This document shows, in pieces, positions 751-58,075 of a DNA stretch of 64,000 bases. The notes under the pieces were generated by a model. It was not told the DNA's origin. It saw only the letters and a list, made by a program, of their open reading frames with translations, and searched no databases. The number at the start of each line of letters is the position of its first letter. Positions within the stretch are counted from its first letter, which is position 1. Both the position numbers and the translations under genes were made by a program. This DNA is from Ylistrum balloti (taxonomy: Eukaryota), in assembly GCF_031769215.1 (NCBI RefSeq), contig NW_026782349.1, positions 367,634 to 431,633 on the forward strand, written 5' to 3'.

Positions 751-3700
751 GTTCTGAAAATGAAGATATGTTCTACAGAAGTTCTACATGTGAAAATTGG
801 TCATGCTGGTAATCAGCACATGTAAATGCACCCTTTTGATGTTCTGTAACTACAGACAAATCCAGTAGATAATCCATGCATCTTACTGTTAGACAAGTGC
901 AGAGGAATCCTGTTGATGGTCCTTAAGCATATGTAGGCTTGCATGCTAATAGTACACAAGCTTAAGCGCAGTGTTCTACAACTGTTGACAACCTGTTGAT
1001 ATTATGGAAGTGTAGTTCTGGTTTTAAACTACTAAAGGTAGAGACGACTATCCAGTTAAATTTATTAGAGATTTAAGTGTTGGAAAAAGTAGTCATTTTG
1101 TTACTGTAGATAATTGTAAATACATGTACATAAAGTCTAAACAGCTCTAGGATGCACAATATATATATAGTTATGATTTGAGAATTAAAAAAACAATTTG
1201 GAAAAATAAGGCAATCTTCATCAGCCTGCATCTCTCGAAACGATGCCATCGGAACCACCTGGTATACTAAAGAGCATCACATACCTCCAACTTCGTAGCG
1301 CACAAGGAAATATACACAGTAGGTTCGAGATGCACGAAGGAATACTGCTATCCAGAAATGGAACATTCACAATTGGGAAAATGAAATCATTATGATTATC
1401 ATCAAGCTTGGTGGAAAGCTGTCCCTATTGTTTTTTTTGCAGTAAGTAAAGATTGCGGTATGCAAGCTGCGGTGTCCTTGATATCCATTTCAGGTGGGTA
1501 TGCACGATGGTCAAGGAACTCTTGTTACAATAAAGTTAAGTTTATCAAAGTTATCTACCCATGCCTAAACAAAAAACTCTAAATCAAAATCGATGAAGGG
1601 GGGGCGAAATTTGAAAAATGGAAATGTTGACACAGCCACACATGAAAAGTAAAACGACTATCAATAGGTATTACAGATTGAAAACTGGTGAAGCAAATAT
1701 GCATCCCTTTTAATCTCAATTTTGAGTATGTATTGTGACTATATGACAGTTACCATGATTCAACAATATCAGGTATATGGCAGTACGAAGCTAGCACAGC
1801 CAGTAGTTAATAATCTATTAATTAAAATACCGATATCCCAACAGTATCCGAATTCAAACTCAAACTGGATCAAACGAGAGGAAAATATGAACACTGGAAT
1901 CGCTGAAACAGAAACCCGTGATCAGTGAAAGAAGAAAAATATTATGTTCCTGAATCATTTGATCTCACTTTTAGAATATATGCTTGATGTGGTTGAAAAG
2001 AACATCGTATATGGTAGTAAGTAGTAGGAATAAGGAATGAGTTTATCAATAGGCAGAGTCTATGATTGATAATTTTATGAGGTGTCATAATCGTGTACAA
2101 ATCAAAGTTTTGGTTTTTCAATCCTCGGATGATTATCTGAAACAATTAAAACACTAGGACTAGCCGATATTAATCTATCGAAACATTGGAAGATGTACTG
2201 ATAGAGTGCCATTGTTTACACGTAAAACCGGTACATATAATGATGCTATGCCGACATATTTTGTGTAGATCGTTGATATAGACTCTTGATTTGCGTTGTG
2301 GATTTCAAACCGATAACCGACTTTGATAGTTATTTAACAAGTTCTCGTTGAGCCCACTGTCTGTCCAATTAATCCCATCATGTTGGTACCTTATCAATGT
2401 GGATGTTTGTGCATGATATAAGCTCTAATGAACTGAACTACCAGTATTATCCTACCAGTACACAATATAATGATAATAGTTCACCTTAGTTTCATATGTT
2501 CGTGTGTACTAGGCTTGCTCTGCATTAGATTGGCGAATACTTTTACCTCTCCCACAAATTCTCTCGCCTCCAGTGTCTTCTTTGGGTTCAAAATGTCTTT
2601 CCTATAGATTTTCACTCGTTCTGAACTTGTTGGTGAAGATTTTTCAACCCAATAATGATCTCAAGGGAGAATCATTTGATTGTCTTACACGATATGAAGT
2701 TGAGGTGTGTAGATAATCATTGACATATCTAGTGGTTTCCAGAACAGGAACTTCTTGAACACCTTCTTATACTTTTTCTATTGACGGTATCCGTGTAAAT
2801 GTTTCTTTTTTCATTCATTTTTTGTCATTTCTTGGTTGATTTTTAGTTTGAATAAGAATTTGTTAACGGGTGATTACTGTTTTTTGATACCGAGTTAAGA
2901 TGACATACGGTGTTCAATAGTTTCCATTTCACTTAGTGATTTCTAAACCAAGAAGTGTGTTAAATGACAAATGAATTTTGTGAAGTATTGTTTCGACACA
3001 ATACACATCAAAGGACTATCCATGTCACATTTCATTTGACAACCACATATTTTGATTAATATGTCTACACACACCTACCTTGTCACACGTCTTGTGACGA
3101 TGGAGTTTCCTGTCCATTTCCGCGTTTATCAAGTATAGAAAAAGCTTTAACGACGAAACCAGTCAACGAGTACATTGTATTTCCTTATAAGTCGCTATAT
3201 TAACCAATATGCGCATTTCAGTTCTAACTTATACACATAAATTTTGGCGTTAAAATATTACTATGGAAACACCTTTTGGATTACTCCTCTGTTTTCAACA
3301 ATACAGACGATATCCGGTATACAACGAGTAAGTTTATTCAAATTTGAACATCTAAGTGTATTTCAGTCGAATACTATCTTGATTTGCCAGTTTGCAATTC
3401 GAATCGTTCTTTAATAAAAAATTTCATTGACATATAGCTGTAAGGTTAATGGCCATATAGAACCGTTCAACGTGATACGTGTATTATTGTCCGACAATCT
3501 GGTTAGACATTATTTACAATTAAACACCATCTACATATACGTACGGAACTATTTTTATCTCGCATTATGAGAACATATAGTTCAACACTACAGTGAGAGC
3601 GAAAATCGCCCGGAGGCTGTAAACCAGGAATAACACTAAATCTACACTTTTCTTTCACTATAAAAATCTTGTACCAAACATAAAATAACAAGAGTTCTTA

Positions 3701-17099: not shown

Positions 17100-17900
17100 G
17101 GTTGAATTCCAGGTCAAAAAATGTTTCGAGTTTGGTGGCAAGCTCCTCTAACGGATGACTGGTGTATAATTTTCTCCCGTCTATGTCTTTGTGGGATACA
17201 TGTATTCCTTGCGGGATAATTCTATTCTGATATACCATCAGGTGGAAGAATTCATATCCCTTGTACCTACATAGAGTTGATATCTACCCTTGTTTTACCT
17301 GCTAAAATTGTTCTTCCTTCTTCCTTACTATGCTGATTCTATCGAACAGCTTGTCAACATATACCATTATCATTTCATTTTCCCTATTGTGTACATCTTG
17401 GTGTTATATTATGGACTTTACAAAGGCATTTGATAAGGTTCCTCGTTGTCATTTCATACACAAACTTCGCAAATTTGAAAACTTTTTTAAGCAATAGATA
17501 CAAAAAAGTATTATAAATGGCTCATATAAAAAAATATCAGTGGCATTCCACAAGGAAGTGTGCTAGGGAAAATTATATTAGTCATTTATATTAACGATAT
17601 GACAGGGAATAAAACATCGCCTTGTCCCCTGATGACATGGAATAAAACCGTTGAATCGGAAAGCATTATGACAAAGACATTTTGTAAATGGAATTTGGAT
17701 CAACGGCGGAAACGGTTGAATATCTTATCAAAATTTCACCCCAATAAATGTATCGCACTTCATATAATGAAATTATGACAAAATGAAATAAAATACCAAT
17801 TAAAAGGATATAGTGGTGAAACGAAATTTGTTAAAAAGTTTTAAAACTCAAAAAGGCCTGACCGTTGTTGATTAATGATAAATTTAACTTCCAAACTTAT
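17100..17900 (+). mobile_element. Decayed non-LTR (LINE) retrotransposon reverse-transcriptase fragment
   Basis: Conceptual translation gives the RT motifs LLSNS…MDFTKAFDKVPR.HFIHKLRKF, GIPQGSVLGKIILVIYINDMTG, and a frameshifted …LQ.DLD.L..W…KFNPNKCIALHIM followed by K.LGV.IDDKLNF. Several frameshifts and stops show it is a fossil copy. Confidence 0.7.
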
Positions 17901-18064: not shown

Positions 18065-18240
18065 ACATTACTTACTTGGATTGACCAAGTAACATTGCGG
18101 GTGTCGTTGATGAAGTAGAAGACGCTTACTCTTCCGGAACAAATGGTCTTATTCTACTTGTGCTTTTTCAGGAGTCTCCCTGTAAATATTTCTTTTGTTC
18201 ATGTTTTGTGGAATTTGAGTTTTAATTATGATTATGTTGC
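18065..18240 (-). repeat. Dispersed repeat copy that serves as the uninterrupted (empty-site) paralog of the repeat at 49575-49990
   Basis: The reverse complement of 18065-18240 aligns with 49600-49668 joined to 49931-49975 across a junction …gaataagaccat|ttgttccggaagagta…. It lacks the roughly 260 bp present at 49669-49930. Confidence 0.75.
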
Positions 18241-19117
18241 TATCTTGGTATTTTCTTAATGTTTTTTTTTTTAATGAAAGAGTCACCACGAATCTGCTTT
18301 TAGTAATGATTGTACAAAAGCAGTTGTAACACGTGCGAAACTCTTCGTTATATTTTACATTCATTTATGTATCTATGAAAAGAGTTGTTGATATAAGGGA
18401 TAGTCTGACTGTTCAAGTCGTAAGTAATATGTCATCGTTCTATACTGTAGAGATAAGCGCTTACTTTTTTCATTTACATATATTCATCTTTCATCTTCAT
18501 GACACATTTCAGTGTCATTTATTTTTTTCCTCGTGACTATTGCCTGTTTTTAGATTAATAGATAAATAGTCTTAAATATAGTTACAATACACTATACTGT
18601 ACGAAGGATATTACTCAAGCAGACGACATAAGGTCTAGTACAAGTGTGTACAACTACGACATTACTGTGGACTTTTAAATACACATCTTCCTTAATCTCA
18701 TACGGATATTGGTTGTATTTGAATATGTTAGATACCATCAAACTTTCGTTTGGTAAACATACTTATCCTTTCCATCGTGTCCCTCAATGCCTGTCATATT
18801 AGAAAATATGTAGCCTACGTCTCAATGTGAACTTTTACCTTTGACCTCATCTGGAGGCCACACCTTTTGACGTCATCAAAATATGTGCTGTGAAAACGCT
18901 CCAGTTGTGAAACAAACCTTGTCGCAGTCGATCTGGGAAGATGTTCATGAACCAGTGGAGTTATATCTCGAAATATTGTGGACTTGTATGTGAGGAGAGT
19001 AGGACTGTGTTTGACTGGTTTTTATAACACACAACTATATTATTTAATACCCGTCTATAGATATATTTCCATTCAACAACTGCTGACGTTCTTGGTCAGC
19101 TGGTCTGAAACTGTTGC

Positions 19118-24008: not shown

Positions 24009-24387
24009 TGTATCATGCTTTAATTCAGTCAAGATCATATGTTGGGCAATTGTTGAATGTTTTGCTAAACGTTTTACCAACAGTAAGTACTCAACTAGAC
24101 ATAATTCAAATCTTGTGCAATGATCAGGCTAGTGTAAACTTGGCTGACTAGGCAATATTTCATGGCTAATCTAATTAATGGTTAATTCTAAGAACTTGCA
24201 TATAGAAAAAATTGTAAGTCTGAAGGTTAATGTCTTTGTTATTTCTTTGGTTGATCAATGGTAATTTGATGAGTTTTGAAGGAACAATAACAGATGTACA
24301 GCAACACTATTTTTACAGTCCAATATAAAATTTATTTTCAATATATGTTGTGTTTTGCTTTTAAGTATGACAACTGGTGTGTTGTAG

Positions 24388-25296
24388 ATGACGACCATAA
24401 CAAAGTGGAGTTAGGTGCCAACTGGATCCATGGCATCGAGAGAAATCCCATATTTAAGATAGCTTATGACAACAATCTGTTGGAACTGCGGCATGGTGAC
24501 AAAGGTCTACGTCACAAGAACATGTTTCTTACTGAGGATGGGGAGGAAATCAATGAGCGGACTGTGAACCAAATCAACCTCATGTATGGGCAACTTATTA
24601 TCCAGGCCGAGGATTATTATCAGAGCAACATTCCCACTCCAGAGGAAAATGACAGTGTTGGTGCATTCTTAGAACGGGAATTTTCAGCAATGATTGAAAG
24701 GTATTCCAATGGAGACCGTCATATACGGGAAATTTTATTTGACCAAAGGAAACTGCTGGAGTGCTGTATATCTGGTTGTGACACGCTACACGAGGTGTCA
24801 CTGAGTGAGTTTGGGGGTTACCAAGAACTGCCAGGAGTTCACTACTCCATTCCCAATGGCTTCAGATCAGTGTTAAACATTCTCAAGAAAAACATCCCCA
24901 CAGAAAACATACTGCTCAACACCCCAGTCAAATGTGTGCACTGGAATCGCAAGCATTCCGATGACAACCAGTATGAGGTCAAAGTTGAATGCGAGAATGG
25001 AGAGGTGTTCTATGCAAATCATGTGATAGTGACTGTCTCACTGGGTGTTTTGAAAGCAGCCTGTGATCGCATGTTTGACCCACCGCTGCCACCAGACAAG
25101 CTGCAGTCCATTGACCGTGTGGGATTTGGCATTGTGGACAAGGTGATAGTTCAGTTTGATGAGCCAGTCACACCTCCAGAATTATTTCATGTTGAAATGT
25201 TATGGGATAAGACTAAAGTTGAAATTCCAGATCTCAGGCATACCTGGTATCGCAAAATTTACTCCTTAGAGGTTACTGCAGGCAATATTCTTGTTG
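24388..25296 (+). CDS. Polyamine oxidase exon 2 (909 nt, substrate-binding domain). The acceptor is tgtgttgtag|, and the phase-1 donor G|gtaagt is at 25297.
   Basis: It translates to (D)DDHNKVELGANWIHG…VTVSLGVLKAACDRMFDPPLPPDKLQSIDRVGFG…WYRKIYSLEVTAGNILV(G). The ELGA.WIHG and LGVLK…F.PPLP motifs align with human SMOX/PAOX. The join with exon 1 gives [25 protein letters not shown]. Confidence 0.88.
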
Positions 25297-36367: not shown

Positions 36368-37240
36368 GGTACATTTATAGCTGTAGGCTCTCACTGTACA
36401 TTTGGTGTTTAGTGGTACAAAGCTGTAGGCTCTCACTGTACATTTGGTGTTTAGTGGTACAAAGCTGTAGACTCTCACTGTACATTTGGTGTTTAGTGGT
36501 ACAAAGCTGTAGACTCTCACTGTACATTTGGTGTTTAGTGGTACAAAGCTGTAGACTCTCACTGTACATTGGATGATTAGTGGTACAAAGCTGTAGACTC
36601 TCACTGTACATTTGGTGTTTAGTGGTACAAAGCTGTAGACTCTCACTGTACATTGGATGATTAGTGGTACAAAGCTGTAGACTCTCACTGTACATTGGAT
36701 GATTAGTGGTACAAAGCTGTAGACTCTCACTGTACATTTGGTGTTTAGTGGTACAAAGCTGTAGACTCTCACTGTACATTTGGTGTTTAGTGGTACAAAG
36801 CTGTAGACTCTCACTGTACATTTGGTGTTTATGGAGGCTCTCACTGTACATTGGATGATTAGTGGTACAAAGCTGTAGACTCTTACATTTGGTGTTTAGT
36901 GGTACAAAGCTGTAGACTCTCACTGTACATTTGGTGTTTAGTGGTACAAAGCTGTAGACTCTCACTGTACATTTGGTGTTTAGTGGTACAAAGCTGTAGA
37001 CTCTCACTGTACATTGGATGATTAGTGGTACAAAGCTGTAGACTCTCACTGTACATTTGGTGTTTAGTGGTACAAAGCTGTAGACTCTCACTGTACATTT
37101 GGTGTTTAGTGGTACAAAGCTGTAGACTCTCACTTTACATCGGATGATTAGTGGTACAAAGCTGTAGACTCTCACTGTACATTGGATGTTTAGTGGTACA
37201 AAGCTGTAGGCTCTCACTGTACACTGGCGATGGGTGTTTA
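36368..37240. repeat. Minisatellite with a 42-bp unit, about 20 copies, in intron 3. It has two monomer types.
   Basis: The unit is agctgtag[g/a]ctctcactgtacatttggtgtttagtggtacaa. The second monomer type carries cattggatgattag in place of catttggtgtttag, and the two types are interspersed. Confidence 0.95.
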
Positions 37241-43261: not shown

Positions 43262-44350
43262 ACCAAACTATGTCTGTGGTATCAAGCTGATGTTAGATTT
43301 CATCACCTTGTGCCCCTGTCTCCACTCTTAAATCCACTCCCTTCTCACTTCGTCAGTGAGCTATGTCTGTGGTATCAAGCTGATGTTAGATTTCATCACC
43401 TTGTGCCCCTGTCTCCACTCTTAAATCCACTCCCTTCTCACTTCGTCAGTGAGCTATGTCTGTGGTATCAAGCTGATGTTAGATTCCACCACCTTGTGCC
43501 CCTGTCTCCACTCTTAAATCCACTCCCTTCACACTTAGTTAGTGAGCTGTGTCAGTGGTATCAAGCTGATGTTAGATTCCATCACCTTGTGCCCCTGTCT
43601 CCACTCTTAAATCCACTCCCTTCTCACTTCGTCAGTGAGCTGTGCCAGTGGTATCAAGCTGATGTTCGATTCCATCACCTTGTGCCCCTGTCCCCACTCT
43701 CTTAAATCCACTCCCTTCTCACTTCGTCAGTGAGCTGTCTGTGGCATCAAGCTGATGTTAGATTTCATCACCTTGTGCCCCTGTCTCCACTCTTAAATCC
43801 ACTCCCTTCTCACTTCGTCAGTGAGCTATGTCTGTGGTATCAAGCTGATGTTAGATTCCACCACCTTGTGCCCCTGTCTCCACTCTTAAATCCACTCCCT
43901 TCACACTTAGTTAGTGAGCTGTGTCAGTGGTATCAAGCTGATGTTAGATTCCATCACCTTGTGCCCCTGTCTCCACTCTTAAATCCACTCCCTTCACACT
44001 TAGTTAGTGAGCTGTGTCAGTGGTATCAAGCTGATGTTAGATTCCATCACCTTGTGCCCCTGTCTCCACTCTTAAATCCACTCCCTTCTCACTTCGTCAG
44101 TGAGCTGTGTCTGTGGTATCAAGATTTCATTGACTTGTGTTTCTCTCCCCACTTTTAAGTCCACTCCCTCCGAACTTTGTCAGTGAGCAGATGCTGTGGT
44201 AAAAAGCTGATATTAAACTCATCACCTTGTGCCCTTGTCTCTACTTTTAAGTCTGATCCCTTCTCACTTTATCAGTGAGCCATGTCTGTGGTATGGAGCT
44301 GATGTTTGATTCCGTCACCTTGTGCCCCTGTCCCCACTCTCTTAAATCCA
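43262..44350. repeat. Satellite with a 93-bp unit, about 11-12 copies, with diverged copies at the 3' edge
   Basis: The unit is gtcagtgagctatgtctgtggtatcaagctgatgttagatttcatcaccttgtgcccctgtctccactcttaaatccactcccttctcacttc. Because 93 = 31 x 3, it yields a stop-free repeated 31-aa pseudo-peptide, LCLWYQADVRFHHLVPLSPLLNPLPSHFVSE. Confidence 0.95.
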
Positions 44351-45944
44351 CTCCCTCCCCACTTTCTCCATGGCATGCTCCAATTTCTGTCATTGAAAGA
44401 TTTTATTTCAGCTTGTCTCTTGATCATTCTGATGTAAATATGATTTTAACAATGTTTAATTTTTTTAAAGACTCTTGTCTTCGTCAATACACCAAATTCT
44501 AAACAAAAAATGATTTAAATTGTTGTGTTGGATAAGAAATGGAATATTGGTACAAAGTGAGAAAGTTATTTGAAAATCAAGTATACAATCATTTGAGAGT
44601 ATACTATTGTTCATATACATGTACTACTGAAAGTAAGTCTCATGATATTTAACATGATATAAGAATGTTTATCTAGGTATTGTTGGAAGTCATGTGAGGA
44701 AGAGCATTTTTTCCTAATTTTACTCTCACCTCAACCAAATCTGAATAGACTGACATTCTCTAATTGGTAAAATTTTATTATTGTTCTGTCAATATCTTTA
44801 TTGTCACAGAGGGTGGTCAATTATTGTGACCTACCATATTCAATGCAAGTAAAATTATGAATATTCAATATTTAAACACAATTGTGTTGATTGATATCCG
44901 ATTTCTTTCATGAAATTGGAGTTGGAACAACATTCGGAAACCGTCCAATGATATCCTAGCTTCAGTGTACATATATTTCTGACTTGTGTGTAGAATTTTT
45001 AGACCAGATTGTTCTAGACTTAGCGCAACAGTATATGTATTGAAGTTCTCAGGACTTACAAAAGTTACACAAGTTATGATCCAAATTGTTTCAACAGCAG
45101 TCATGAAAATGAATATTTCTCACATCTATATTCAAAGGCAATGTTAATCATGCGGCCAAAATATAGTTAGACCTGTGAACAATAATGCAGTTGTATAAAA
45201 GTGACTTTTAATTTGCTCAAACTAAGAACTAGTTGTGCTTGTGACTGCATTTTACCAGTTATGGATCTTTGCATTATCCTTATTTATATCCTATTTTTGT
45301 TACATTTTACTTTTTATGTATATTTTAGCAGAATTTAGAACAAGCCGTTTTAGTTGCATTCGAAACATAGGGATGAAATCGTTTCAAAGCCATGACATTG
45401 TTACACATGATTGTTGAGGAAGTGCCCTATACATCTACATGTTTGTTGAGAGTCAGTCATAGGACAGTTCATTACCAGTCCTCATTTCTGCTTCATAATT
45501 CACTCATATGAACACTGTACAGTGGTAATCCTCCTCTGGTAAGGCTGCTGAAAGTAATGGCTTTTTTCTCTCCTTTGTTTTTACAACACAGTGTTATGTC
45601 AAATCATTCCTTTAAGTTATGGCATATCCAGCAATAGAGCTAAACAGGGGAGGCTACGTTACCTACGATCCTGTACAGTGTGTGACGACAACAGGATGGT
45701 GACCAACAACTAAATATGAATAAAATGTTTGAAAACAGAAAACTTTCCCTTCTGTTTTTTATATTTCTGAATTAGTTACTAATATTTGATTTTCAAAAAG
45801 ATAATTTAATGCATACATTTAGATCATCAAATACAAAGATGTGTTTAACAGCACTGACTCTATAATTAAGTGTGGCAACGTTAAAAGTAGTATCCAGTTG
45901 TTGGGTATAAAATACCACAAAAGAAATTTAACAACCACTGGTGC

Positions 45945-48705
45945 CTCATTCCTGTTAATGATATCAGGAAGGAAGACATTGTACAGTAGATACAAGGGTC
46001 ACATTTCTGTTAATGGTATCAGGAAGAAAGACATTGTACAGTAGATACAAGGGTCACATTCCTGTTAATGGTATCAGGAAGGAAGACATTGTACAGTAGA
46101 TACAAGGGTCACACATTCAGGAAGGAAGACTGTTACATGGGTCACATTCTGTTAAGGAAGGAAGACATTGTACAGTAGATACAAGGGTCACATTCCTGTT
46201 AATGGTATCAGGAAGGAAGACATTGTACAGTAGATACAAGGGTCACATTCCTGTTAATGGTATCAGGAAGGAAGACATTGTACAGTAGATACAAAGATCA
46301 CATTCCTGTTAATGGTCTCAGGAAGGAAGACATTGTACAGTAGATACAAGGGTCACATTCCTGTTAATGGTATCAGGAAGGAAGACATTGTACAGTAGAT
46401 ACAAGGGTCACATTCCTGTTAATGGTATCAGGAAGGAAGACATTGTACAGTAGATACAAGGGTCACATTCCTGTTAATGGTATCAGGAAGGAAGACATTG
46501 TACAGTAGATACAAGGGTCACATTCCTGTTAATTGAAGAAGTAAGAAATACATTGACTATGGTCTCAGGAAGGAAGACATTGTACAGTAGATACTAGGGT
46601 CACATTCCTGTTAATGGTATCATTAAGAAAGACATTGTACAGTAGATACAAGGGTCACATTCCTGTTAATGGTATCAGGAAGGAAGACATTGTACAGTAG
46701 ATACAAAGATCACATTCCTGTTAATGGTATCATGAAGAAAGACATTGTACAGTAGATACAAGGGTCACATTCCTGTTAATGGTATCAGGAAGGAAGACAT
46801 TGTACAGTAGATACAAGGGTCACATTCCTGTTAATGGTATCAGGAAGGAAGACATTGTACAGTAGATACAAGGGTCACATTCCTGTTAATGGTCTCAGGA
46901 AGGAAGACATTGTACAGTAGATACAAGGGTCACATTCCTGTTAATGGTATCAGGAAGGAAGACATTGTACAGTAGATACAAGGATCACATTCCTGTTTAT
47001 GGTCTCAGGAAGGAAGACATTGTACAGTAGATACAAGGGTCACATTCCTGTTAATGGTATCAGGAAGGAAGACATTGTACAGTAGATACAAGGGTCACAT
47101 TCCTGTTAATGGTATCAGGAAGGAAGACATTGTACAGTAGATACAAGGGTCACATTCCTGTTAATGGTATCAGGAAGGAAGACATTGTACAGTAGATACA
47201 AGGGTCACATTCCTGTTAATGGTATCAGGAAGGAAGACATTGTACAGTAGATACAAGGGTCACATTCCTGTTAATGGTATCAGGAAGGAAGACATTGTAC
47301 AGTAGATACAAGGGTCACATTCCTGTTAATGGTATCAGGAAGGAAGACATTGTACAGTAGATACAAGGGTCACATTCCTGTTAATGGTATCAGGAAGGAA
47401 GACATTGTACAGTAGATACAAGGGTCACATTCCTGTTAATGGTATCAGGAAGGAAGACATTGTACAGTAGATACAAGGGTCACATTCCTGTTAATGGTAT
47501 CAGGAAGGAAGACATTGTACAGTAGATACAAGGGTCACATTCCTGTTAATGGTATCAGGAAGGAAGACATTGTACAGTAGATACAAAGATCACATTCCTG
47601 TTAATGGTCTCAGGAAGGAAGACATTGTACAGTAGATACAAGGGTCACATTCCTGTTAATGGTATCAGGAAGGAAGACATTGTACAGTAGATACAAGGGT
47701 CACATTCCTGTTAATGGTATCAGGAAGGAAGACATTGTACAGTAGATACAAGGGTCACATTCCTGTTAATGGTATCAGGAAGGAAGACATTGTACAGTAG
47801 ATACAAGGGTCACATTCCTGTTAATGGTATCAGGAAGGAAGACATTGTACAGTAGATACAAGGGTCACATTCCTGTTAATGGTATCAGGAAGGAAGACAT
47901 TGTACAGTAGATACAAGGGTCACATTCCTGTTAATGGTATCAGGAAGGAAGACATTGTACAGTAGATACAAGGGTCACATTCCTGTTTATGGTCTCAGAA
48001 AGGAAGACATTGTACAGTAGATACAAGGGTCACATTCCTGTTAATGGTATCAGGAAGGAAGACATTGTACAGTAGATACAAGGGTCACATTCCTGTTAAT
48101 GGTATCAGGAAGGAAGACATTGTACAGTAGATACAAGGGTCACATTCCTGTTAATGGTATCAGGAAGGAAGACATTGTACAGTAGATACAAGGGTCACAT
48201 TCCTGTTAATGGTATCAGGAAGGAAGACATTGTACAGTAGATACAAGGGTCACATTCCTGTTAATGGTATCAGGAAGGAAGACATTGTACAGTAGATACA
48301 AGGGTCACATTCCTGTTAATGGTATCAGGAAGGAAGACATTGTACAGTAGATACAAGGATCACATTCCTGTTAATGGTATCAGGAAGGAAGACATTGTAC
48401 AGTAGATACAAGGGCCACATTCCTGTTAATGGTATCAGGAAGGAAGACATTGTACAGTAGATACAAGGACCACATTTCTGTTAATATTATTAGGAAGGAA
48501 GACATTGTACAGTAGATACTAGGACCACATTCCTGTTAATGGTATCAGGAAGGAAGACATTGTACAGTAGATACTAGGACCACATTTCTGTTAATATTAT
48601 TAGGAAGGAAGACATTGTACAGTAGATACTAGGACCACATTCCTGTTAATGGTATCAGGAAGGAAGACATTGTACAGTAGATACTAGGACCACATTCCTG
48701 TTAAA
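45945..48705. repeat. Satellite with a 55-bp unit, about 50 copies (2.76 kb). The core is highly homogenised and the edges are divergent.
   Basis: The unit is ggaaggaagacattgtacagtagatacaagggtcacattcctgttaatggtatca. Central copies at about 46800-48300 are nearly identical. Flanking copies carry variants such as aaagatcacattcctgttaatggtctca and taggaccacatttctgttaatattatta, plus a 40-bp insertion at about 46530. Confidence 0.97.
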
Positions 48706-49574
48706 TGTAAGACATGAAGAAAAATTAAGAAAGTTAATGGTATGAGACAGGAAAGATAACTATTTTATTAAATTAACAAAATCGACATTTCTACATCAGT
48801 GATGTGCATCAATCTTTACTAATAGCACTACTAACACGGACAGTGTTCCCTAAGTTGTTATTTTGTAAATTTTCTTTTCTCAGAAGGTAACATGACTGTT
48901 TTTGAAATATATCACAGTTGATGCGGTATTGTACGACCTGTTTCCTTTATTCTGATTGCCATGAAAGATGAAACGACTGACATGATAACTTGTTTCGAGA
49001 GAAGCATGTTGGTGCTGATTATGGAGCTATGTTTTCGTTGCCATCCCATTTCATCCCACTGGCAGATAATCTTGCGTGATGTGAAAATGTGTGATGCTCG
49101 TTAGTATGTTTGAGGATATTGTTGGATTGACCTTGATTTTTATTTTTTTTCCATCGTTGTAGACGAAGATATGTATCCATCCAAAACACCTGATCACATT
49201 CGCCTTACACTGTGTGATAGGTCTTCTATTCATTCGTCTTTTTTGCCAATTTATTCAGTTTAGATAATTTTTGATGTGTCAATAGGCTTTCGTTGTTTTA
49301 TTGAAACTTGGCGATAGCTTGTGCTAGTGAATGTTTTGTTCTAAAGCAGTCTTCACTCTGGAGCTATCTTCCAACAGTGTCTGTGGCATCCAATGTACAA
49401 GTATGTGGTAGAGTTGGTGACAGTTGGGACAGTGAATTAACAATTATTGTTCTCCACTGATAAATGAAGAGCACCCATATTTGTATTAACATTTCAACCT
49501 CACTGACCAAGCGATACTGACCGACGCGGTCATGCTGGCAGTGTATTAAACAAAAACTACAACATGGCATCATA

Positions 49575-49990
49575 ATTCAAACTCCAATTCCATAAAACTA
49601 GGACAAAATATGAACAAAAGAAAGATTTACACGGAAACTCCTGAAAAAGTACAAGGAGAATAAGACCACTGCATGAAACCGTTCTCATGCTCAAGCATGA
49701 ATTTTGTACGCAAGCCATATGTCTTAAGTTAAAAATTAATTAATAAGACTGATTTTGCCAAAGATTTTTTTTTAATTTGAAAGGACTTCAAGTCAAAGTT
49801 ATATTCAATGTTTATATTTGAAATGTTTATTATTTTATATGATTTAGGCGAATTATAAAAAAGTTTGCTTAAGCACAAACTCTATGCTTGAGCATGAGAA
49901 TGGTTTCATGAATACGGGCCCGGGGCGGGTGTTCCGGAAGAGTAGGTGTCTTTTGCTTCATCGATGAGCATCAAATACACCGAACTTCAT
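49575..49990 (+). repeat. Dispersed repeat copy (filled site) interrupted by the MITE at 49669-49930
   Basis: The flanking sequences 49600-49668 and 49931-49975 match the reverse complement of 18065-18240. Confidence 0.7.
49669..49930. mobile_element. Non-autonomous foldback/MITE-like insertion of about 260 bp with inverted-repeat ends
   Basis: The left end is catgaaaccgttctcatgctcaagcatga and the right end is cttgagcatgagaatggtttcatg, its reverse complement. The interior is AT-rich. The segment is absent from the paralogous copy at about 18065-18240, which marks the empty site. Confidence 0.75.
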
Positions 49991-51160
49991 GTCATACAAA
50001 ACTATAGAATATCTCTTAATGAAATCACTATGACGACCATAAACTTTCCCAATAATTTTTATCAACCTGCATATTTTGTACCCGTATATTACGAGTATGT
50101 CAGTCAGTTGACGACTTCTTGCACGGAAATCCTGATTTTATATCCGACTCCTTAGTCCTGTCACACGGATACAATGACCCATAGATTCAGCACTTGTCCT
50201 GCCCGGGATGCTGTAAAACAATGACCTTTTTGGTTTTGTATTTGTTACATAAAGTTGTCGCTTTCGTAGTTCTGGGCAAAACATTGCAATATGTATACTG
50301 TATATTTCTTTCCATCACTTTTTCCTCAGTCGCCTTCATGGTGTCATGTTTTAGGTTCTTTGCATCACTGACGAATTCTAGAAGGACAGAACAGCTTTAG
50401 GATGCAGTTTTATCCATTGTTTGGTTCCACTGTATCTAATTCAAATTTTCAGCTCACTTGTGTCTTTTGTACAACCTATGATGACCGAAACTCCACTACA
50501 GCTAATAGTTCGATTCGCTTTCACTTACCGTAAAAAGGAATTGTCTCAGGCTAAAGCTTAACTTTGGAAAGTAACTTAGAGACTTCAATAAGACTACTTA
50601 AGCCTGCCTTTTGAATCAGCAACACTACTTATTAATTAAACCAGCAATTTGCCGATGCTTACATCCCACCGTACTTCTAATAAAGAAATAACCTTGCAAT
50701 TTACATCGGTTCAGTTTCACGCAAACTGGAGATCTAATTCTTATCGAAAATATTAAACTAGAGATTTTAAAACGCTCGAGGAAGACTTAGCAGAGAGTGG
50801 ATGGCACAAGATGCTGCTATTTTTACACTCAACGTGAATAGAATGCATTTCATTTCGTCAATCTGAAAGGATTTAGCTGCTAACAAAATAGGAATATCTT
50901 GATACCGATGGCAGCAACACGTTTATCGATCTTACATAAAAAGTACATGGTTGTGCCTGTCTGTAAGGTATTTGATAACTTGAACATTTGCTTACAATAG
51001 GAACCATGTGTGAAAAGACTTGCATGATAATCATGAAAACACTACATTTTCCAATCTACTGAATGACGACACAATAGATACAAATGCTCCCTCTACGTTA
51101 GTAAATTGTTGGGTTTGTTCACTTCCGGGTTGCACACATTTTGGATCTCTTACATCGTTG

Positions 51161-52187
51161 AAAATACTACAGAACACATACACCTCGGTGATAATACTAC
51201 AGAACACATACACCTCGGTGATATTACTACAGAACACATACACCTCGGTGATACTACAGAACATATACACCTTGGTGATATTACTACAGAACACATACAC
51301 CTCGGTGATACTACAGAACATATACACCTTGGTGATAATACCACAGAACACATACACATCGGTGATACTACAGAACACATACACCTTGGTGATATTACTA
51401 CAGAACACATACACCTTGGTGATATTACTACAGAACACATACACCTCGGTGATACTACAGAACACATACACCTCGGTGATACTACAGAACACATACACCT
51501 TGGTGATAATACTACAGAACACATACACATCGATAATACTACAGAACATATACACCTTGGTGATAATACTACAGAACACACACCTCGGTGATAATACTAC
51601 AGAACACATAAACCTCGGTGATACTACAGAACACATACACCTCGGTGATACTACAGAACATATACACCTTGGTGATAATACTACAGAACACATACACCTT
51701 GGTGATATTACTACAGAACACATACACCTTGGTGATATTACTACAGAACACATACACCTCGGTGATACTACAGAACACATACACCTCGGTGATACTACAG
51801 AACACATACACATCGATAATACTACAGAACATATACACCTCGGTGATAATACTACAGAACACACACCTCGGTGATAATACTACAGAACACATACACCTCG
51901 GTGATAATACTACAGAACACATACACCTCGGTGATATTACTACAGAACACATACACCTCGGTGATACTACAGAACACATACACCTCGATAATACCACAGA
52001 ACATATACACCTCGGTGATAATACTACAGAACACACACCTCGGTGATAATACTACAGAACACATACACCTCGGTGATATTACTACAGAACACATACACCT
52101 CGGTGATACTACAGAACACATACACCTCGATAATACCACAGAACATATACACCTCGGTGATAATACTACAGAACATATACATGTGTT
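51161..52187. repeat. Satellite with a 27-30-bp unit, about 35 copies, with higher-order repeat structure
   Basis: The unit is cacctcggtgata[at/tt/-]actacagaacacata. A sub-block acatcgataatactacagaacatatacacct[c/t]ggtgataatactacagaacacacacctcggtgataatac recurs at about 51520, 51810, 51980 and 52120. The array is stop-free on both strands. Confidence 0.95.
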
Positions 52188-52225: not shown

Positions 52226-52662
52226 TTAATTTGTCGTCCTCGTTTCATGTGCCCTTTTCCGTGATGTCAGTGTAAACCTCTCCTTTGTTAATATTTTAAC
52301 CTCGTTTCATGTTACCTTTTCCGTGGTGTCCTTGTAAACCTTTCCTTTGTTAATTTTTTAACCTTGTTTCATGTTACCTTTTCCGTGGTGTTCGTGTAAA
52401 CCTCTCCTTTGTTAATATTTTAACCTCGTTTCATGTTACCTTTTCCGTGGTGTTCGTGTAAACCTCTCCTTTGTTAATATTTTAACCTCGTTTCATGTAC
52501 CCTCTTCCGTGGTGTCCGTGTAAACCTCTCCTTTGTTAATATTTTAACCTCGTTTCATGTTACCTTTTCCGCTGTGTCCATGTAAACCTCTCCTTTGTTA
52601 ATATTTTAACCTCGTTTCATGTTACCTCTTCCGTGGTGACCGTGTAAACCTCTCCTTTTTTG
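52226..52662. repeat. Satellite with a 61-62-bp unit, about 7 copies, directly abutting the 27-30-bp array
   Basis: The unit is tgtaaacctctcctttgttaatattttaacctcgtttcatgttaccttttccgtggtgt[tc]c. A relic monomer-like stretch (gtgtaaatattttaatctcatttcatgg) lies at about 56705-56740. Confidence 0.92.
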
Positions 52663-55600
52663 TTCCCATCGCTACATGTTAGCATTTCCTTATCATAACA
52701 TGCTTGTTAACATAAAATGTTCGTGGGTACTTACTTTCGTGGTTTAGGCCTGAGAGTGGACATGTGAAACATTTTCCTTAACATTGTACGTGAGACACAC
52801 AAGTGAAGAACTTTATATAATGAAGCTGTTTCGACCTTTCCGTCCTTCTAGGACTCGTCAGTGAAGCAAAATACTTCAATTTTGAACGCTAGGAGGAGAA
52901 TTAACAAAACCGAAATCGATAGATAGACATTTCTATATTTAGATGAGGAGGTCGCAGTAGTCGCATGTTACAATACGTTTCGTTAGAACCATGAGGCTCA
53001 GAAGTCTCGTTGTCAGTTTCCCGGACCAAAATTTGAGAACGTGACATGCCAAGGGGTTTACAAGGAGTATAAATGTTTTAAATCGCACGTTTATTCGTAG
53101 TGGGAACCACGTGATTATTTACACTCTGGTGATCTACTCTTGATTATTCCGTGTGTTTCTGATCTTAAAGAGTATTGTAAATCCAGGCTTCTTTATATAT
53201 GGTGCTTCAGCTTTTTATTTTTGTTTTCTAAATTTATGACTTATCCCCGTGAGTCTCTATCAGTCAGTACAACCGTTGTGCACGTATATCATTATGACTT
53301 TGTTACCTGGGGCACATGCGGATGTTCAGAGTGGCACGTAGTCCTAGCCAAATGTATCAGAGGCAAGGTCACCTATCTGTATGTCCTCTGATAGACAAAG
53401 AGGGTCAGTGTCGGGGTCACTTTACATATTGTCTTTATAGCTGTCCTTATAGCCGGATCACTCGACATTCAAAATAAGTATGTGTCCACCCAGTGTCAAT
53501 GAGGGCTGTTAAAATGTCTAAAACTCTATTTTCTAGATTTATAGTGTAATTTCATTTAATAGAGGGGTTCAATGTTTAGTTTATACTATAATGGGTTACA
53601 ACATTATATTACTGTCTCTTACAAATGTTACATTGGAACAGTGTAACATTCTGAGCAATTCCGTGCTCTTATATTTTTATTTTGGTCATGGGGCCAATTA
53701 ATTTGTCACACTCAACAACACTTGTTTTAAATGTTTCGTCTCGTTTGTTTGCGGTCATTTGATGTTGCACACATATTTATCATGCTACATAACAGTTGTG
53801 TCCCAAATACAAAAATATTAAATCACCAAATGCCCACCAAATGACACACAGATGAAAATTGACATGGATTATAGTAATAACGGATTTTTGAGCAAGATTT
53901 ATCCACGAAATTAAATGCTAGCAAAAACGTATATTTTTGCTTCAAGAAAATATATATGATTTTACATATAAAATTGTACCATGACATTAATTGGAAATAT
54001 AAAGGAGAATAAGATTAAGTGTTTTAAAAGGGTTTATTGCAGTAAACCTCAAGTATTGCTATGTTCTCAAAAATTAAAACCAAATAATTGACAGGAAAAA
54101 AATACAACTGTATATGCAGAATACCATCAACCAGAATATCTCAATCCTTGTGTTGTGCTTTGTCCGTTGGCAATCAATGTTCAAATTGGAGATCATGGGA
54201 AACGTGTGAAATATCGTAATTTAAATAAACAGGACCATATATCCTTTACCACACCGCTCGTTGAACTGACATTAATGCAACATGTCAACAAAATCGTAAT
54301 ACAGACTCGATAAAACAAAGGTCAAATAAAAAAAATAAGCCCCTGGGGAATCATTCCAGTCGTATCTACAGGGTAAGCGTTTTCTTCTTCATTGATAAGA
54401 ACATTTGTGTAAATCTAGTCCATTAAATTAAGTAATGTGACGTTCTCAAATAAGAAGTGAGTTAACAACAAACCGGATACATCTAACTTCCTCGATATTT
54501 CCCAGTGATGTCGTGATGGCAACATTTAAACTTTACATAGACTCATCAATCTACGCGAGGCTCTTTTATTTTGTCAGCTCTCAACATATATCACAGAAAT
54601 TTTGATATTTTGAACAAGTTATAGAATATTGCCTTTAATTAAAACATGGTCAACTTGCCAAGCCACCTATAAAAGGTTATGGGTGATGGTGAAGTTTAGA
54701 AATTCTTATATAAACGAGGAAGGTTTGTATGTTTAAGTGATAATCAGAAAGATTGTAATATCGGAGTATGATTAGATAGTGTTCTAACCTTGGATAAGAT
54801 AGATGGTGGTATGGCTTTACTGGTTATCAGCTTTATTTGTTGTTATTTTGTAAGCAGGAACATACGCGAGTACAGACAATGACCATGTTACCAGACGTAT
54901 TTTCTGCTGACATTGTTCTCTCCGTGCATATCGTTAAACGTGGTCTTTATATCAATAAGTACAGACTTGTGTTTGGAATTCATTCTAGACTTTGAGCTGG
55001 TAATTATTTGTAAATTATGAACCCATTCTGAAAACGAATCCAATAAATCATATTCCTGTTTCATCCACTCGCAGGCATAGCCTTCAAATGAGCCCATAAA
55101 TATTTAAAATTCAGATAAATGTAGGAGTCAGTCGATATTATTTCCTTTTCACGAGATTTTCTGTTGGTGTTTGGCTTAGATCGCCAGTATTGACTTGTTC
55201 AACTCGACAATGGTAATGAGGGAAATATAACAGGAAAATACTGAGTAAGGGTGCCCGATTTACGGTCGTGTATATCTACCAACCCAAAGACATTGCTGGT
55301 CAGGTTGTCAATGCTTATCATAAACAACTCTGTGCACTTCTTCAAAATCATCTGATCAATGGCCCAAATGCTGGGGTGTACATTATGACAATATTGAAGA
55401 CGGCTTTAAGATCAGATTTAAAAAAAATGACAGCTTAAACTCTAAATTTGCATCTTATATGTGATAACTTGACCATTGTCCAAAAACATTTCCTGCATAA
55501 AAAGGGGGATGGGGGTTGAGGTTTGGGAGTTTCGGGGTTGCTTATTAATGATGAAACATCTACTATACACTACCCAATTTTCCCACAACACAGACAAAGC

Positions 55601-57789
55601 ATACTTCATTTTTACTATTGTTGAAATTTATGATGCCAGTTAATAATAATGACACGGACCTGCCACATTCATGTTGGATTCCACAACTCCACAAGAATCA
55701 ATATAAACAATATTTTATAACTAGCTTGTCCAGTTGTTCTACTAAAGTTTTCTCAAAGATTCCTACTACAATTTCTTAGTACTGTCAAATCAAGGCCAGC
55801 CTTTTGTTTTACTGCTTACTCGAGAAGGGGAATTAATGGTATGACGATTAAAGAAACCCCAATGAGTTTTCACCAAACTTAAACATTCTCTCCGAAAAAA
55901 ATCTACTTTTAGAATATTTTATTTTTCCACTTAGCACAATTCCATGTCCGTGATGAGTTTGGTGGTCAGATTTTACTACAGGCTATTAGCATACCTACAA
56001 CAGGGCGCCTAATCTGGCCGACTTGTATCGAAGGCCTTATCGAATCAGGTCACCGTGACATTGCCACGTCCTTTAATCTTACTTTTAGATATAATGATAG
56101 TGTCTTGTCTCTAAATATCAAGAAATTTATAGACATATATACCACACAAGAATTGGAAATCAAGGACACGACACACTTTTATACCAGCCGCTCTTTATCG
56201 TCAATTTGTTGATAAAGTCCATCACATACCCATCAGTTTGAAATCAAAGACACGACAGAGTACAGCAACCGCTTATCTCGATGTTTTCACTACAAAAAGA
56301 AAAACAACAACAACAAGGACAGCTTTCCACCAAACTGAATTATAATCGTTATGAAGTCGGTTCCTCCGTTAATTTTCCGTTTCAGTATTCAGCGGATTGT
56401 TCTTAATATCACGATTTCCGTACAATTTGTCGACAGCAGATAAAGTCACAACACACGGTTTTGAAAGATACAAGTTGACGGAAAGTTTTACAATCGACAT
56501 AATGATTTCGTTTGGAAATATAAGTGTATCTTATTTTATTGTGCGATAAGAAGTTGGACGTGTTTGATGCTCATTTGCATACATGTACTTGGTGATTCCC
56601 TTGTTGTTTACCGTTTCTGATTTGGGAGCGTGGTGTTACTTAGATTGACCACGATGAAGCATAAGACGCCTGTTGTCTCGGAGATCCTGCTTTTATATGT
56701 ACTTTTAGGGATGTACGTGTAAATATTTTAATCTCATTTCATGGCTTTGAGCTTGCACTAAACCTCTGTGGACACGGTATTCCCTTGTTGTTTTAACCCT
56801 GGTTCAGTAATGCTAAGTCTTAGTTGTAGTGGAACTCTTCTGTATCTATCTGAACAGATATGCCTCTTTCCGTATAAAACATCCGCTCTCATTGTATTTC
56901 TTTCTTAAACACATTAATGATGGAGCAAATATCAGTTCCGAATTCACAAGAAAAATGGTGAATTTCAATATTCTTAAGTGGAGTTAAAGATTAGGACCAG
57001 TAATACATAAAGCAGAACATATTAGAGGAATCCGGTGTAGTTTGAGATTTCTGTAAGAATCACAGAGGTAGTATACGAGAAACCCATTTGTCATCAACGA
57101 AGTGTTCATATAACGTATGGGAGGTGCTAGAAGAAAAATGATATTTTGTTCGCCACTGATGAACAGTACGTGCATATGTGCACATTATTCGTTCTGTAGG
57201 TTATTCTTGTGTGTCCTCACATCAGAATCCATTTATCATTTGTTTCCGGATACAACAGCTTGATACAGAAGGGTAATTTGTTTAAGTTGTTATACCAAGG
57301 TAGATATTTTAAGACTGTTGTACGTTAAGGTGGGGCTGTGGGAGGTACCTATAAATGATCACTGAGACACTACAACGTATATAAGCCAATATTAATGAGC
57401 GTCACCACTTTGTAGCTCTGTTATTGATGACGCTCCACACTTAGGTCAAGACACTAATAATAAATTTGTTTTGTCTCTCGCCTAATATAGTAGGATAGTT
57501 TCTGCGTTATATACACCTACAAGAATAAAGGAAAAAAAAGTAAAAGCGATCTTTTACGGAATGGAATGACAAAAAAATCACCTATATAGTGTCCGCAATT
57601 CCAAAATATTTGACATAAATACGTAGCAATGGAATGGAAGTTTTTATAACACAATCAGTAGAAGGGCTGAGTGTTTCGATGACTACACGGTCACCTTCAT
57701 CAGACAAATGCCCAGTGTTAAGCGTACCAGCTGTTAGAGCGTAGCCGACTTGAGTACACCACACTGTTACCATCTTGTGTACTTTTTAA

Positions 57790-58075
57790 TGTTCCCGGAT
57801 CGAAAGATCGGGGATATATTGGTTTTGTGCTGTGTGTTTGTCTGTCTGTCAACTTTAACCTTGCCCATAACTGTTGTACCGTAAGAGGCAGGACTTCCAT
57901 GTCGTGACAAGACCTTTCCCGTTGTCCCAAAAATTTAACCATGTGACCTTGATCGCTATCTACATTGAAAAAATGAACATTGGCCATATCTATTGTTCTT
58001 GTGACAAGGCCTTTCTGGTAGCACCAATTTTTTTGACCATGTGACCTTAATCGTGACTTTTGGCCTACAATTTAA
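57790..58075 (-). mobile_element. Dispersed repeat family, copy 2, in inverted orientation relative to 14281-14660
   Basis: The reverse complement gives tgtaggccaaaagtcacgattaaggtcacatggtcaaa…cttgtcacaag…gatcaaggtcacatggttaaa…gacagacagacaaacacacagcacaaaaccaatatatccccgatctttcgatccgggaac. This is colinear with copy 1 and carries the same (GACA)n and cccgatctttcgatc tail. Confidence 0.75.

What the first reader, a model, noticed from the sequence alone, without database searches (positions are those of the whole stretch)
49669..49930. Transposon insertion validated by an internal filled-site versus empty-site comparison
The reverse complement of 18065-18240 reads …aaaacatgaacaaaagaaatatttacagggagactcctgaaaaagcacaagtagaataagaccat|ttgttccggaagagtaagcgtcttctacttcatcaacgac…. 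Positions 49600-49990 read …aaaatatgaacaaaagaaagatttacacggaaactcctgaaaaagtacaaggagaataagaccac[about 260 bp]gtgttccggaagagtaggtgtcttttgcttcatcgatgag…. The extra segment has inverted-repeat ends of about 25 bp (catgaaaccgttctcatgctcaag / cttgagcatgagaatggtttcatg) and an AT-rich core. That is the structure of a MITE or foldback element that jumped into one copy of an older dispersed repeat. The right junction carries an extra GC-rich stretch (aatacgggcccggggcgg) not accounted for by the empty site. This may be filler DNA, or the true element boundary may lie slightly elsewhere.
Basis: seen in the sequence. Interest (0 to 1): 0.6.

Follow-up and report, generated by a model that had tools for sequence, protein, structure and literature searches.

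The report
Rolling-circle-type transposon inserted in scallop repeat
A 259-base mobile element really did insert into one copy of an old scattered repeat in a scallop genome, and its end structure suggests a rolling-circle (Helentron-type) hitch-hiker rather than a classical MITE; this kind is already known in bivalves, so the finding is ordinary.

Summary
Window 49671-49929 (259 bp) interrupts a ~180-bp dispersed repeat. The copy at 18100-18275 is contiguous across the same point. A profile of the repeat finds five more uninterrupted copies in the window, so this is an insertion, not a deletion elsewhere.

The window comes from the saucer scallop Ylistrum balloti. The host repeat is probably the 3' tail of a LINE.

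The breakpoint is exact: GACCAyT|TGTTCC. The element lies between two T's, with nothing duplicated and nothing lost. This makes the "unexplained" GC-rich stretch (AATACGGGCCCGGGGCGGG) part of the element.

The resulting anatomy is:
- a 5' inverted repeat 1 nt from the end, containing its own small palindrome;
- a 3' inverted repeat set back 19 nt from the end;
- a GC-rich palindrome (CGGGCCCG) after the 3' repeat;
- a TT target with no target-site duplication.

This matches published Helentron-derived non-autonomous elements (HINE/DINE-1/Pearl), which were often first mislabelled as MITEs.

The main weakness is that only this one copy could be examined. No second copy is in the window, and no scallop genome could be searched. 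Family membership and copy number are therefore untested.

Verdict: a real insertion, probably a new member of a known kind. Interest is low.

The parts
49671..49929 (+). Inserted 259-bp non-autonomous element. The proposed 5'->3' orientation is the + strand.
   Evidence: It is absent from the otherwise collinear copy at 18.1 kb and from five further copies of the host repeat. G+C is 31.7% overall and 19% in the core. It is single-copy in the window.
49672..49695 (+). 5' subterminal inverted repeat, starting 1 nt from the element's 5' end. Weaker complementarity continues to 49726.
   Evidence: CATGAAACCGTTCTCATGCTCAAG matches its partner 23/24, with no match in 100 shuffles. The 55-nt arms are 78% complementary. 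The outer part is better conserved than the inner, p = 0.007.
49685..49700 (+). Small palindrome nested in the 5' inverted repeat: TCATGCT-CA-AGCATGA.
   Evidence: Read directly from the sequence. An alternative hairpin, GCATGA/TCATGC, is predicted but is not significantly more stable than shuffles (z = -1.6).
49887..49910 (+). 3' subterminal inverted repeat, ending 19 nt before the element's 3' end.
49911..49929 (+). GC-rich 3' terminal tail AATACGGGCCCGGGGCGGG, containing the 8-nt palindrome CGGGCCCG (49915-49922) or the alternative stem CCCG/CGGG.
   Evidence: It is 79% G+C in a 36% G+C window and unique in the window. It is absent from all empty sites. The predicted hairpin is no more stable than composition-matched shuffles.
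49545..49670 (-). Host repeat, part left of the insert. This is the 3' portion of a LINE-tail-like dispersed repeat whose sense strand is the minus strand.
   Evidence: Aligned to 18275-18142.
49930..49981 (-). Host repeat, part right of the insert.
   Evidence: Aligned to 18141-18100, 25/29 at the junction. nhmmer gives E = 4e-14.
18100..18275 (+). Closest uninterrupted (empty-site) copy of the host repeat. The insertion point corresponds to 18142|18141, sequence ...GACCATT|TGTTCC... on the displayed strand.
17400..17900 (+). Decayed non-LTR reverse-transcriptase remnant directly upstream of the 18-kb copy, on the same strand.
   Evidence: A frame-stitched translation hits Pfam RVT_1 at E = 4.9e-5, 23.6 bits, below the curated cut-off of 29.6. 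It also finds 493 RT homologues, all carrying PF00078.
56646..56790 (+). Further diverged, uninterrupted copy of the host repeat (profile positions 15-187).
   Evidence: nhmmer E = 7e-7. The alignment is contiguous across the junction.
54271..54399 (-). Further diverged, uninterrupted copy of the host repeat (profile positions 30-186).
   Evidence: nhmmer E = 4e-5. Alignment.
1824..1954 (-). Further diverged copy of the host repeat (profile positions 22-157). It passes the junction by 10 nt.
   Evidence: nhmmer E = 1.2e-8. Alignment.
2738..2857 (+). Further diverged copy of the host repeat (profile positions 48-156). It passes the junction by 9 nt.
   Evidence: nhmmer E = 6.5e-7. Alignment.
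49152..49222 (+). Short diverged copy of the host repeat (profile positions 114-184) that spans the junction. It lies 320 bp from the filled copy and is inverted relative to it.
   Evidence: nhmmer E = 5e-3. Alignment.

Best explanation
The 259-bp segment at 49671-49929 is a non-autonomous transposable element of the Helentron/Helitron2 type (a HINE, like DINE-1 of Drosophila or Pearl/Cg_HINE of oysters). It inserted into a 5'-truncated copy of a LINE-tail-like repeat in the scallop Ylistrum balloti.

Shown: the insertion, its exact breakpoints, the TT target, the absence of any target-site duplication, and the terminal anatomy. That anatomy is a 5' inverted repeat 1 nt from the end with a nested palindrome, a 3' inverted repeat 19 nt from the end, and then a GC-rich palindrome.

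Inferred from published knowledge of the family: the element encodes nothing and is mobilised in trans by an autonomous Helentron elsewhere in the genome. That partner's Rep/helicase (plus endonuclease) protein recognises the subterminal repeats. It nicks at the T-rich boundary, copies or peels one strand up to the 3' palindrome, which acts as the end signal, and pastes it between two T's without duplicating the target.
For: 1. Breakpoints. The alignment ends at 49670 = 18142 and resumes at 49930 = 18141. No base is duplicated or lost, and both flanking bases are T.

2. Polarity. Six other copies of the host repeat are uninterrupted at this point.

3. Asymmetric inverted repeats. The 5' arm starts 1 nt from the end and the 3' arm ends 19 nt from the end.

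4. 3' tail. It contains the palindrome CGGGCCCG, is 79% G+C and is unique in the window. It needs no extra event if it belongs to the element.

5. 5' arm. It contains its own palindrome TCATGCT-CA-AGCATGA.

6. Conservation. The outer 24 nt of the arms are better conserved than the inner 31 nt (p = 0.007), as expected for functional termini.

7. Published definitions match these points:
- 11-15-bp subTIRs 2-4 nt from the 5' end and set back from the 3' end;
- a TT target with no TSD;
- palindromic subTIRs or a 5' IR (PMC4067079; PMC7492417; PMC5148889).

8. Such elements are abundant in bivalves and were earlier called MITEs.

9. In-window contrast. A different foldback element at 23806-24004 is flanked by TA on both sides, as a Tc1/mariner-type MITE should be.
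Against: Everything rests on one copy and one insertion event.
- TT makes up 10.6% of dinucleotides, so the target by itself is weak evidence.
- The nearest empty-site copy is 11% diverged, so the boundaries could be off by a base.
- The terminal hairpins are not more stable than shuffles of the same composition.
- The inverted repeat (24 nt, extendable to 55 nt) is longer than the 11-15 nt described for HINEs.
- There is no central tandem repeat or microsatellite. These are common in bivalve HINEs but optional.
- No second copy and no autonomous partner could be found.
Confidence: 0.55

Rival explanations
1. A classical cut-and-paste MITE (49672-49910, symmetric 24-bp TIRs) made by a DDE transposase. 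Its target-site duplication has since mutated away. The 19 GC-rich bases next to it would be unrelated extra DNA, either filler or an earlier small insertion.
For: The inverted repeats are long and near-perfect, and the whole insert folds as a hairpin. This is the usual look of a MITE. A true TA-flanked MITE exists in the same window.
Against: The bases flanking the TIRs are TG and AA, so there is no duplication of any length. Getting TA/TA from them needs two substitutions in four bases. It also needs a separate 19-bp GC-rich insertion at exactly the same point of the host repeat, which none of six other copies has. DDE transposition does not normally add filler at insertion (established knowledge).
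Confidence: 0.2
2. A mobile or once-mobile foldback element of no described superfamily. Its resemblance to Helentron termini would be coincidental.
For: There is only one copy, no partner and no sequence similarity to any described element. The TIR is longer than in described HINEs. The hairpin energetics are not significant.
Against: Four independent structural traits coincide with one known family: asymmetry of the repeats, the 3' palindrome, the TT target and the lack of a duplication.
Confidence: 0.17
3. The 259 bp belonged to the ancestral repeat and was deleted from the 18-kb copy, so there was no insertion.
Against: Five further copies, of different ages, all lack the segment at the same point. 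The segment has its own inverted-repeat ends. No fragment of it occurs elsewhere in the window.
Confidence: 0.02
4. The insert is a spliceosomal intron (an introner-like element) in a coding exon on the minus strand. A GT...AG pair, GTATTC at 49912 down to CAG at 49669, would keep the reading frame of the ORF seen in the 18-kb copy.
For: On the minus strand, removing 49669-49912 joins ...GGC CC|T GGT CTT... in frame with the 46-codon ORF of the uninterrupted copy.
Against: Differences between the two copies fall evenly on codon positions (4, 5, 5), with 9 amino-acid-changing against 3 silent codon differences, so there is no sign of selection on coding. The sequence is a multi-copy, variously truncated repeat next to a decayed reverse transcriptase. 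No protein in 5.8 billion resembles it. The donor GTATTC is a poor match to the GTRAGT consensus (own knowledge).
Confidence: 0.01

Closest known systems
Cg_HINE elements of the Pacific oyster and Pearl elements of Crassostrea virginica / Anadara (Helentron-derived non-autonomous elements of bivalves; PMC7492417)
   Same: The host group is the same (bivalves) and the element is non-coding. It has a 5' subTIR with a nearby complementary IR and a 3' subTIR followed by a palindrome. It inserts at TT with no target-site duplication, and the empty site was recovered from a paralogous repeat copy.
   Different: There is no central satellite-like array and no microsatellite. The inverted repeat is 24 nt (up to 55 nt) rather than 11-12 nt. 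The element is only 259 bp long. Sequence similarity could not be tested because the published table of termini is illegible in the held copy.
DINE-1/INE-1 of Drosophila and HINE-Mo / HINE-Cq of mite and mosquito (PMC4067079)
   Same: The subTIRs lie close to the 5' end and set back from the 3' end. [quoted passage not shown]
   Different: The 3' subTIR here is 19 nt from the end, against 38-60 nt in the mite families. The arms are longer, and no core or microsatellite module is present.
Canonical Helitrons (Helitron1)
   Same: There is no target-site duplication and there is a short GC-rich palindrome close to the 3' end.
   Different: The ends are not 5'-TC / CTRR-3' on either strand and the target is not A|T (definition). 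Canonical Helitrons also lack terminal inverted repeats.
Tc1/mariner-, PIF- or hAT-derived MITEs
   Same: Small size, AT-rich core, inverted-repeat ends and foldback potential.
   Different: There is no target-site duplication and the 3' repeat is not terminal. The TA-flanked element at 23806-24004 in this window shows what such a MITE looks like here.

Membership tests
Helentron-derived non-autonomous elements (HINE / DINE-1-like; Helitron2-type termini) | Insertion within a TT dinucleotide | tested here: met
   The empty site is GACCATT|TGTTCC and the filled site is GACCACT[259 bp]TGTTCC. This is one event only, and TT is 10.6% of dinucleotides.
Helentron-derived non-autonomous elements (HINE / DINE-1-like; Helitron2-type termini) | No target-site duplication or other target modification | tested here: met
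   Positions 18142 and 18141 are adjacent. No base is repeated or missing at 49670/49930.
Helentron-derived non-autonomous elements (HINE / DINE-1-like; Helitron2-type termini) | Asymmetric (subterminal) inverted repeats: the 5' one within a few nt of the end, the 3' one set back from the end | tested here: met
   The 5' arm starts 1 nt from the end and the 3' arm ends 19 nt from the end. The arms are longer (24 nt) than the 11-15 nt described.
Helentron-derived non-autonomous elements (HINE / DINE-1-like; Helitron2-type termini) | Short palindrome / stem-loop downstream of the 3' subTIR | tested here: inconclusive
   CGGGCCCG at 49915-49922, or the stem CCCG/CGGG, is present. The predicted hairpin is no more stable than shuffles of the same GC-rich 19-mer.
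Helentron-derived non-autonomous elements (HINE / DINE-1-like; Helitron2-type termini) | Inverted repeat / hairpin at the 5' subTIR | tested here: met
   TCATGCT-CA-AGCATGA at 49685-49700. The energetics are not significant (z = -1.6).
Helentron-derived non-autonomous elements (HINE / DINE-1-like; Helitron2-type termini) | Central tandem repeats and/or microsatellite (frequent, not obligatory) | tested here: not met
   Tandem Repeats Finder finds nothing in 49600-50000 even at score 30.
Helentron-derived non-autonomous elements (HINE / DINE-1-like; Helitron2-type termini) | Multiple genomic copies sharing termini with an autonomous Rep/helicase/endonuclease-encoding Helentron | not testable with these tools
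   No scallop genome is searchable. The TIR scans of viral and metagenome contigs found nothing, or only a chance bacterial match. The ORF-based searches were empty.
Canonical Helitron (Helitron1) | 5'-TC and 3'-CTRR ends, inserted between A and T | tested here: not met
   The ends are G...GGG on the + strand and CCC...GC on the - strand, and the flanking bases are T/T.
Cut-and-paste (DDE) MITE | Inverted repeats at both extreme ends, flanked by a target-site duplication | tested here: not met
   The 3' repeat is 19 nt internal. The flanks of the repeats are TG and AA, and the flanks of the whole insert are T and T with no duplication.
LINE (non-LTR retrotransposon) 3' tail, as identity of the host repeat | Continuity with a reverse-transcriptase ORF, a shared 3' end and variable 5' truncation among copies | tested here: inconclusive
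   The 18-kb copy follows a decayed RT on the same strand. Copies start at different profile positions. However, a profile of ORF2 C-termini of related RTs does not score the tail above shuffles.

The most novel reading that the evidence does not exclude
The element is the first glimpse of an undescribed scallop transposon lineage that combines long MITE-like foldback arms with Helentron-like TT insertion, no target duplication and a GC-rich 3' terminator. It would be either an unusual Helentron derivative or a TSD-less element mobilised by something else.
Probability: 0.1. Interest if true: 0.4.

Novelty: new member of a known kind. Interest (0 to 1): 0.22.

Why it matters
The value is mainly annotation hygiene. 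Elements with this architecture are routinely filed as MITEs, and the "leftover" 3' bases are dismissed as filler. The exact empty-site comparison shows those bases belong to the element and point to rolling-circle rather than cut-and-paste transposition.

If confirmed genome-wide, it would add scallops (Pectinidae) to the bivalves known to carry Helentron derivatives. It would also give a short, repeat-free HINE variant to compare with the satellite-carrying ones of oysters. It does not open a new question.

Tried and rejected
1. Search for more copies of the insert. All attempts were empty or chance.
- A 24-mer search with 3 mismatches, blastn-short and nhmmer in the window found only the element itself.
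- TIR pattern scans of viral and metagenome contigs gave 0 hits.
- A looser structured pattern gave three hits, all the same 54%-GC bacterial sequence with no further similarity.
- A chimeric query of every open frame of the element against 5.8 billion predicted proteins gave no hit.

2. Retrieval of the same or orthologous locus from other assemblies by exact ORF or protein look-up. Nothing was on record.

3. Intron/introner reading. Rejected, because there is no codon-position bias and the host is a multi-copy decayed repeat.

4. Deletion-in-the-other-copy reading. Rejected by five additional empty copies.

5. Canonical Helitron. The ends and the target do not fit.

6. Test that the host repeat is the coding C-terminus of LINE ORF2, using the TRGHSLKL...SFF..R..WN.L motif. 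It looked suggestive by eye, but a profile built from 31 related RTs did not score it above shuffles. This is left as unproven.

7. Test that the large minisatellite arrays near the element are carried by HINEs. No convincing subterminal inverted repeats flank them.

8. Rfam. No family matched in or around the insert.

9. Comparison with published oyster HINE termini. The supplementary table is illegible in the held copy.

Full report
**Source and setting**

The window is animal DNA: 36% G+C, rich in minisatellites and with almost no long ORFs. The one long ORF, at 24294-25310, is an exon of a spermine-oxidase-like gene. It is 100% identical over 305 residues to XP_060076545.1 of the saucer scallop Ylistrum balloti. 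Identity is 97% to Pecten and Argopecten and 93% to Mizuhopecten. The window is therefore Y. balloti nuclear DNA.

**Checking the observation**

A local alignment of 49300-50400 against the reverse complement of 17600-18600 gives two collinear blocks:
- 49603-49670 with 18209-18142, 61/68 identical, with weaker extension back to about 49545/18275;
- 49930-49958 with 18141-18113, 25/29 identical, with extension to 49981/18100.

Positions 18142 and 18141 are adjacent, so the 18-kb copy is uninterrupted exactly where the 49.6-kb copy carries 259 extra bases (49671-49929). At a fixed register the two blocks have chance probabilities of about 3e-27 and 5e-11.

- 49672-49695 and 49887-49910 match 23/24, with no match in 100 shuffles.
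- Complementarity continues to 55 nt at 78%.
- The insert folds as one long hairpin, z = -6.1.
- The core is 19-24% G+C.

**The host repeat and the direction of the event**

With two copies, insertion and deletion cannot be told apart. I built a profile from the two copies, with the insert removed, and searched the window. It finds further diverged copies at:
- 1824-1954
- 2738-2857
- 10457-10544
- 54271-54399
- 56646-56790
- 49152-49222

It also matches every unit of the 62-bp minisatellite at 52238-52658. Five of the extra copies span the junction, and all are contiguous there. One filled site against six empty sites means an insertion.

The 18-kb copy lies directly downstream of a decayed reverse-transcriptase remnant at 17400-17900, on the same strand:
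- RT motifs are visible.
- A stitched translation hits Pfam RVT_1 at E = 4.9e-5, below the curated cut-off.
- It finds 493 RT homologues.
- Copies begin at different profile positions.

This pattern is what 5'-truncated LINE copies look like. A profile of ORF2 C-termini from 31 related RTs does not score the tail above shuffles. "LINE 3' tail" is therefore probable but not shown.

**Exact breakpoints**

- Empty site: ...AATAAGACCATT|TGTTCCGGAAGAG...
- Filled site...AATAAGACCACT[GCATGAAACC...GGTTTCATGAATACGGGCCCGGGGCGGG]TGTTCCGGAAGAG....

The only difference near the junction is one C/T substitution two bases to the left. The element sits between two T's. Nothing is duplicated and nothing is lost. 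Alternative placements that would create a TG or TTG duplication need an extra gap or extra mismatches.

They are 79% G+C in a 36% G+C window, unique in the window, and absent from every empty site.

**Anatomy of the element (+ strand)**

- One base (G).
- The 5' inverted repeat at 49672-49695. It contains a small palindrome, TCATGCT-CA-AGCATGA, at 49685-49700.
- An AT-rich core with no tandem repeat.
- The 3' inverted repeat at 49887-49910.
- AATA.
- The palindrome CGGGCCCG at 49915-49922.
- GGGCGGG.

The outer 24 nt of the arms (23/24) are significantly better conserved than the inner 31 nt (20/31; p = 0.007). This suggests functional ends rather than an in-situ foldback duplication.

The small terminal hairpins are present as sequence. 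They are not more stable than shuffles of the same composition, so I do not claim energetic support for them.

**What it most likely is**

The combination is the published definition of Helentron/Helitron2-type termini and of their non-autonomous derivatives (HINEs, DINE-1):
- inverted repeats that are nearly terminal at the 5' end but set back at the 3' end;
- a short palindrome after the 3' repeat;
- a hairpin at the 5' repeat;
- a TT target;
- no target-site duplication.

The supporting papers:
- Thomas et al. [quoted passage not shown]
- Vojvoda Zeljko et al. 2020 describe the same modules and TT/no-TSD behaviour in 11 oyster HINEs. They note that Pearl, DTC84 and MgE of other bivalves belong here (PMC7492417).
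- Chellapan et al. 2016 summarise asymmetric terminal inverted repeats plus hairpins, with Helentrons inserting in a TT dinucleotide (PMC5148889).

Canonical Helitron ends (TC...CTRR, A|T target) do not fit on either strand.

A cut-and-paste MITE does not fit either. There is no duplication, and a separate 19-bp GC-rich insertion at the same nucleotide would have to be assumed. As an in-window contrast, the unrelated foldback element at 23806-24004 is flanked by TA on both sides, as a Tc1/mariner-type MITE should be.

**Mechanism (inferred, not shown)**

The element has no coding capacity. It would be mobilised in trans by an autonomous Helentron whose Rep/helicase(-endonuclease) recognises the subterminal repeats. 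The 3' palindrome would serve as the end signal of strand transfer, and integration would occur at a nick between two T's. This comes from the cited literature and general knowledge of rolling-circle transposons, not from this window.

**Limits**

All of this rests on one copy. I could not reach any scallop genome.
- Scans of viral and metagenome contigs with the inverted-repeat pattern found nothing.
- A looser structured pattern found only one bacterial sequence sampled three times.
- A protein-space trick using all open frames of the element found nothing.
- Exact look-ups of local ORFs and of the scallop spermine oxidases were not on record.

The element also departs from described HINEs in two ways. 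Its arms are longer (24-55 nt), and it lacks the satellite or microsatellite modules.

**Readings considered and dropped**

On the minus strand a GT...AG pair (49912...49669) would splice the insert out in frame with a 46-codon ORF of the empty copy. I dropped this reading for three reasons:
- The two copies differ evenly at the three codon positions (4, 5, 5), with 9 replacement against 3 silent codon changes.
- The sequence is a multi-copy decayed repeat.
- No protein resembles it.

Rfam has nothing here.

**Verdict**

This is a real, cleanly delimited transposon insertion into an old LINE-like repeat. It is most likely a Helentron-type non-autonomous element (confidence about 0.55) rather than a classical MITE. 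It is a new member of a known kind and of low general interest. It is useful mainly as a worked example of how the empty site reassigns the supposed filler DNA to the element.

Noticed in passing
window 23806-24004: An unrelated ~200-bp foldback element with 52-nt arms (85% complementary). It is flanked by TA on both sides (ggTA|AGAGTTCC...GGAACTCT|TAcg) and looks like a Tc1/mariner-type MITE. It lies about 290 bp upstream of the spermine-oxidase exon.
   Followed up: partly
window 21171-21465: A ~295-bp imperfect palindrome whose nested arms are 77-87% complementary over almost its whole length. It is another foldback or MITE-like sequence, unrelated to the one studied. Ends and flanks were not analysed.
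   Followed up: partly
window 52238-52658: A 62-bp minisatellite (6.8 units). Each unit matches positions 68-128 of the host-repeat profile (nhmmer E about 1e-4 per unit). The array therefore seems to have grown out of a piece of the same LINE-tail-like repeat.
   Followed up: partly
window 45947-48704; 43268-44364; 36379-37223; 51155-52181; 1-756: Five large minisatellite arrays: 55 bp x ~50, 93 bp x 12, 42 bp x 20, 30/57 bp x 18-36, and 30 bp x 25. Several give long spurious ORFs. I looked for HINE-like subterminal inverted repeats in their flanks and found none above noise.
   Followed up: partly
window 24294-25310: A large exon of a spermine-oxidase-like gene, 100% identical over 305 aa to Ylistrum balloti XP_060076545.1. 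This identifies the source species.
   Followed up: yes
window 11937-12009: A tRNA-Phe(GAA) gene (ARAGORN, and Rfam at 69.8 bits). Whether it is a true gene or a SINE head was not examined.
   Followed up: no
window 18037-18051: A 15-mer, CAAGAAACAGTTCTC, matches the element's terminal repeat at 13/15 and lies only 90 bp from the empty site. About 0.09 such matches are expected per window. There is no extended similarity, so it is probably chance, but the location is odd.
   Followed up: partly
window 14132-14663 and 57783-58217: Another dispersed repeat. A 145-bp unit present 1.9 times at 14273-14547 has a 65-76% identical, inverted counterpart at 57783-58217.
   Followed up: no
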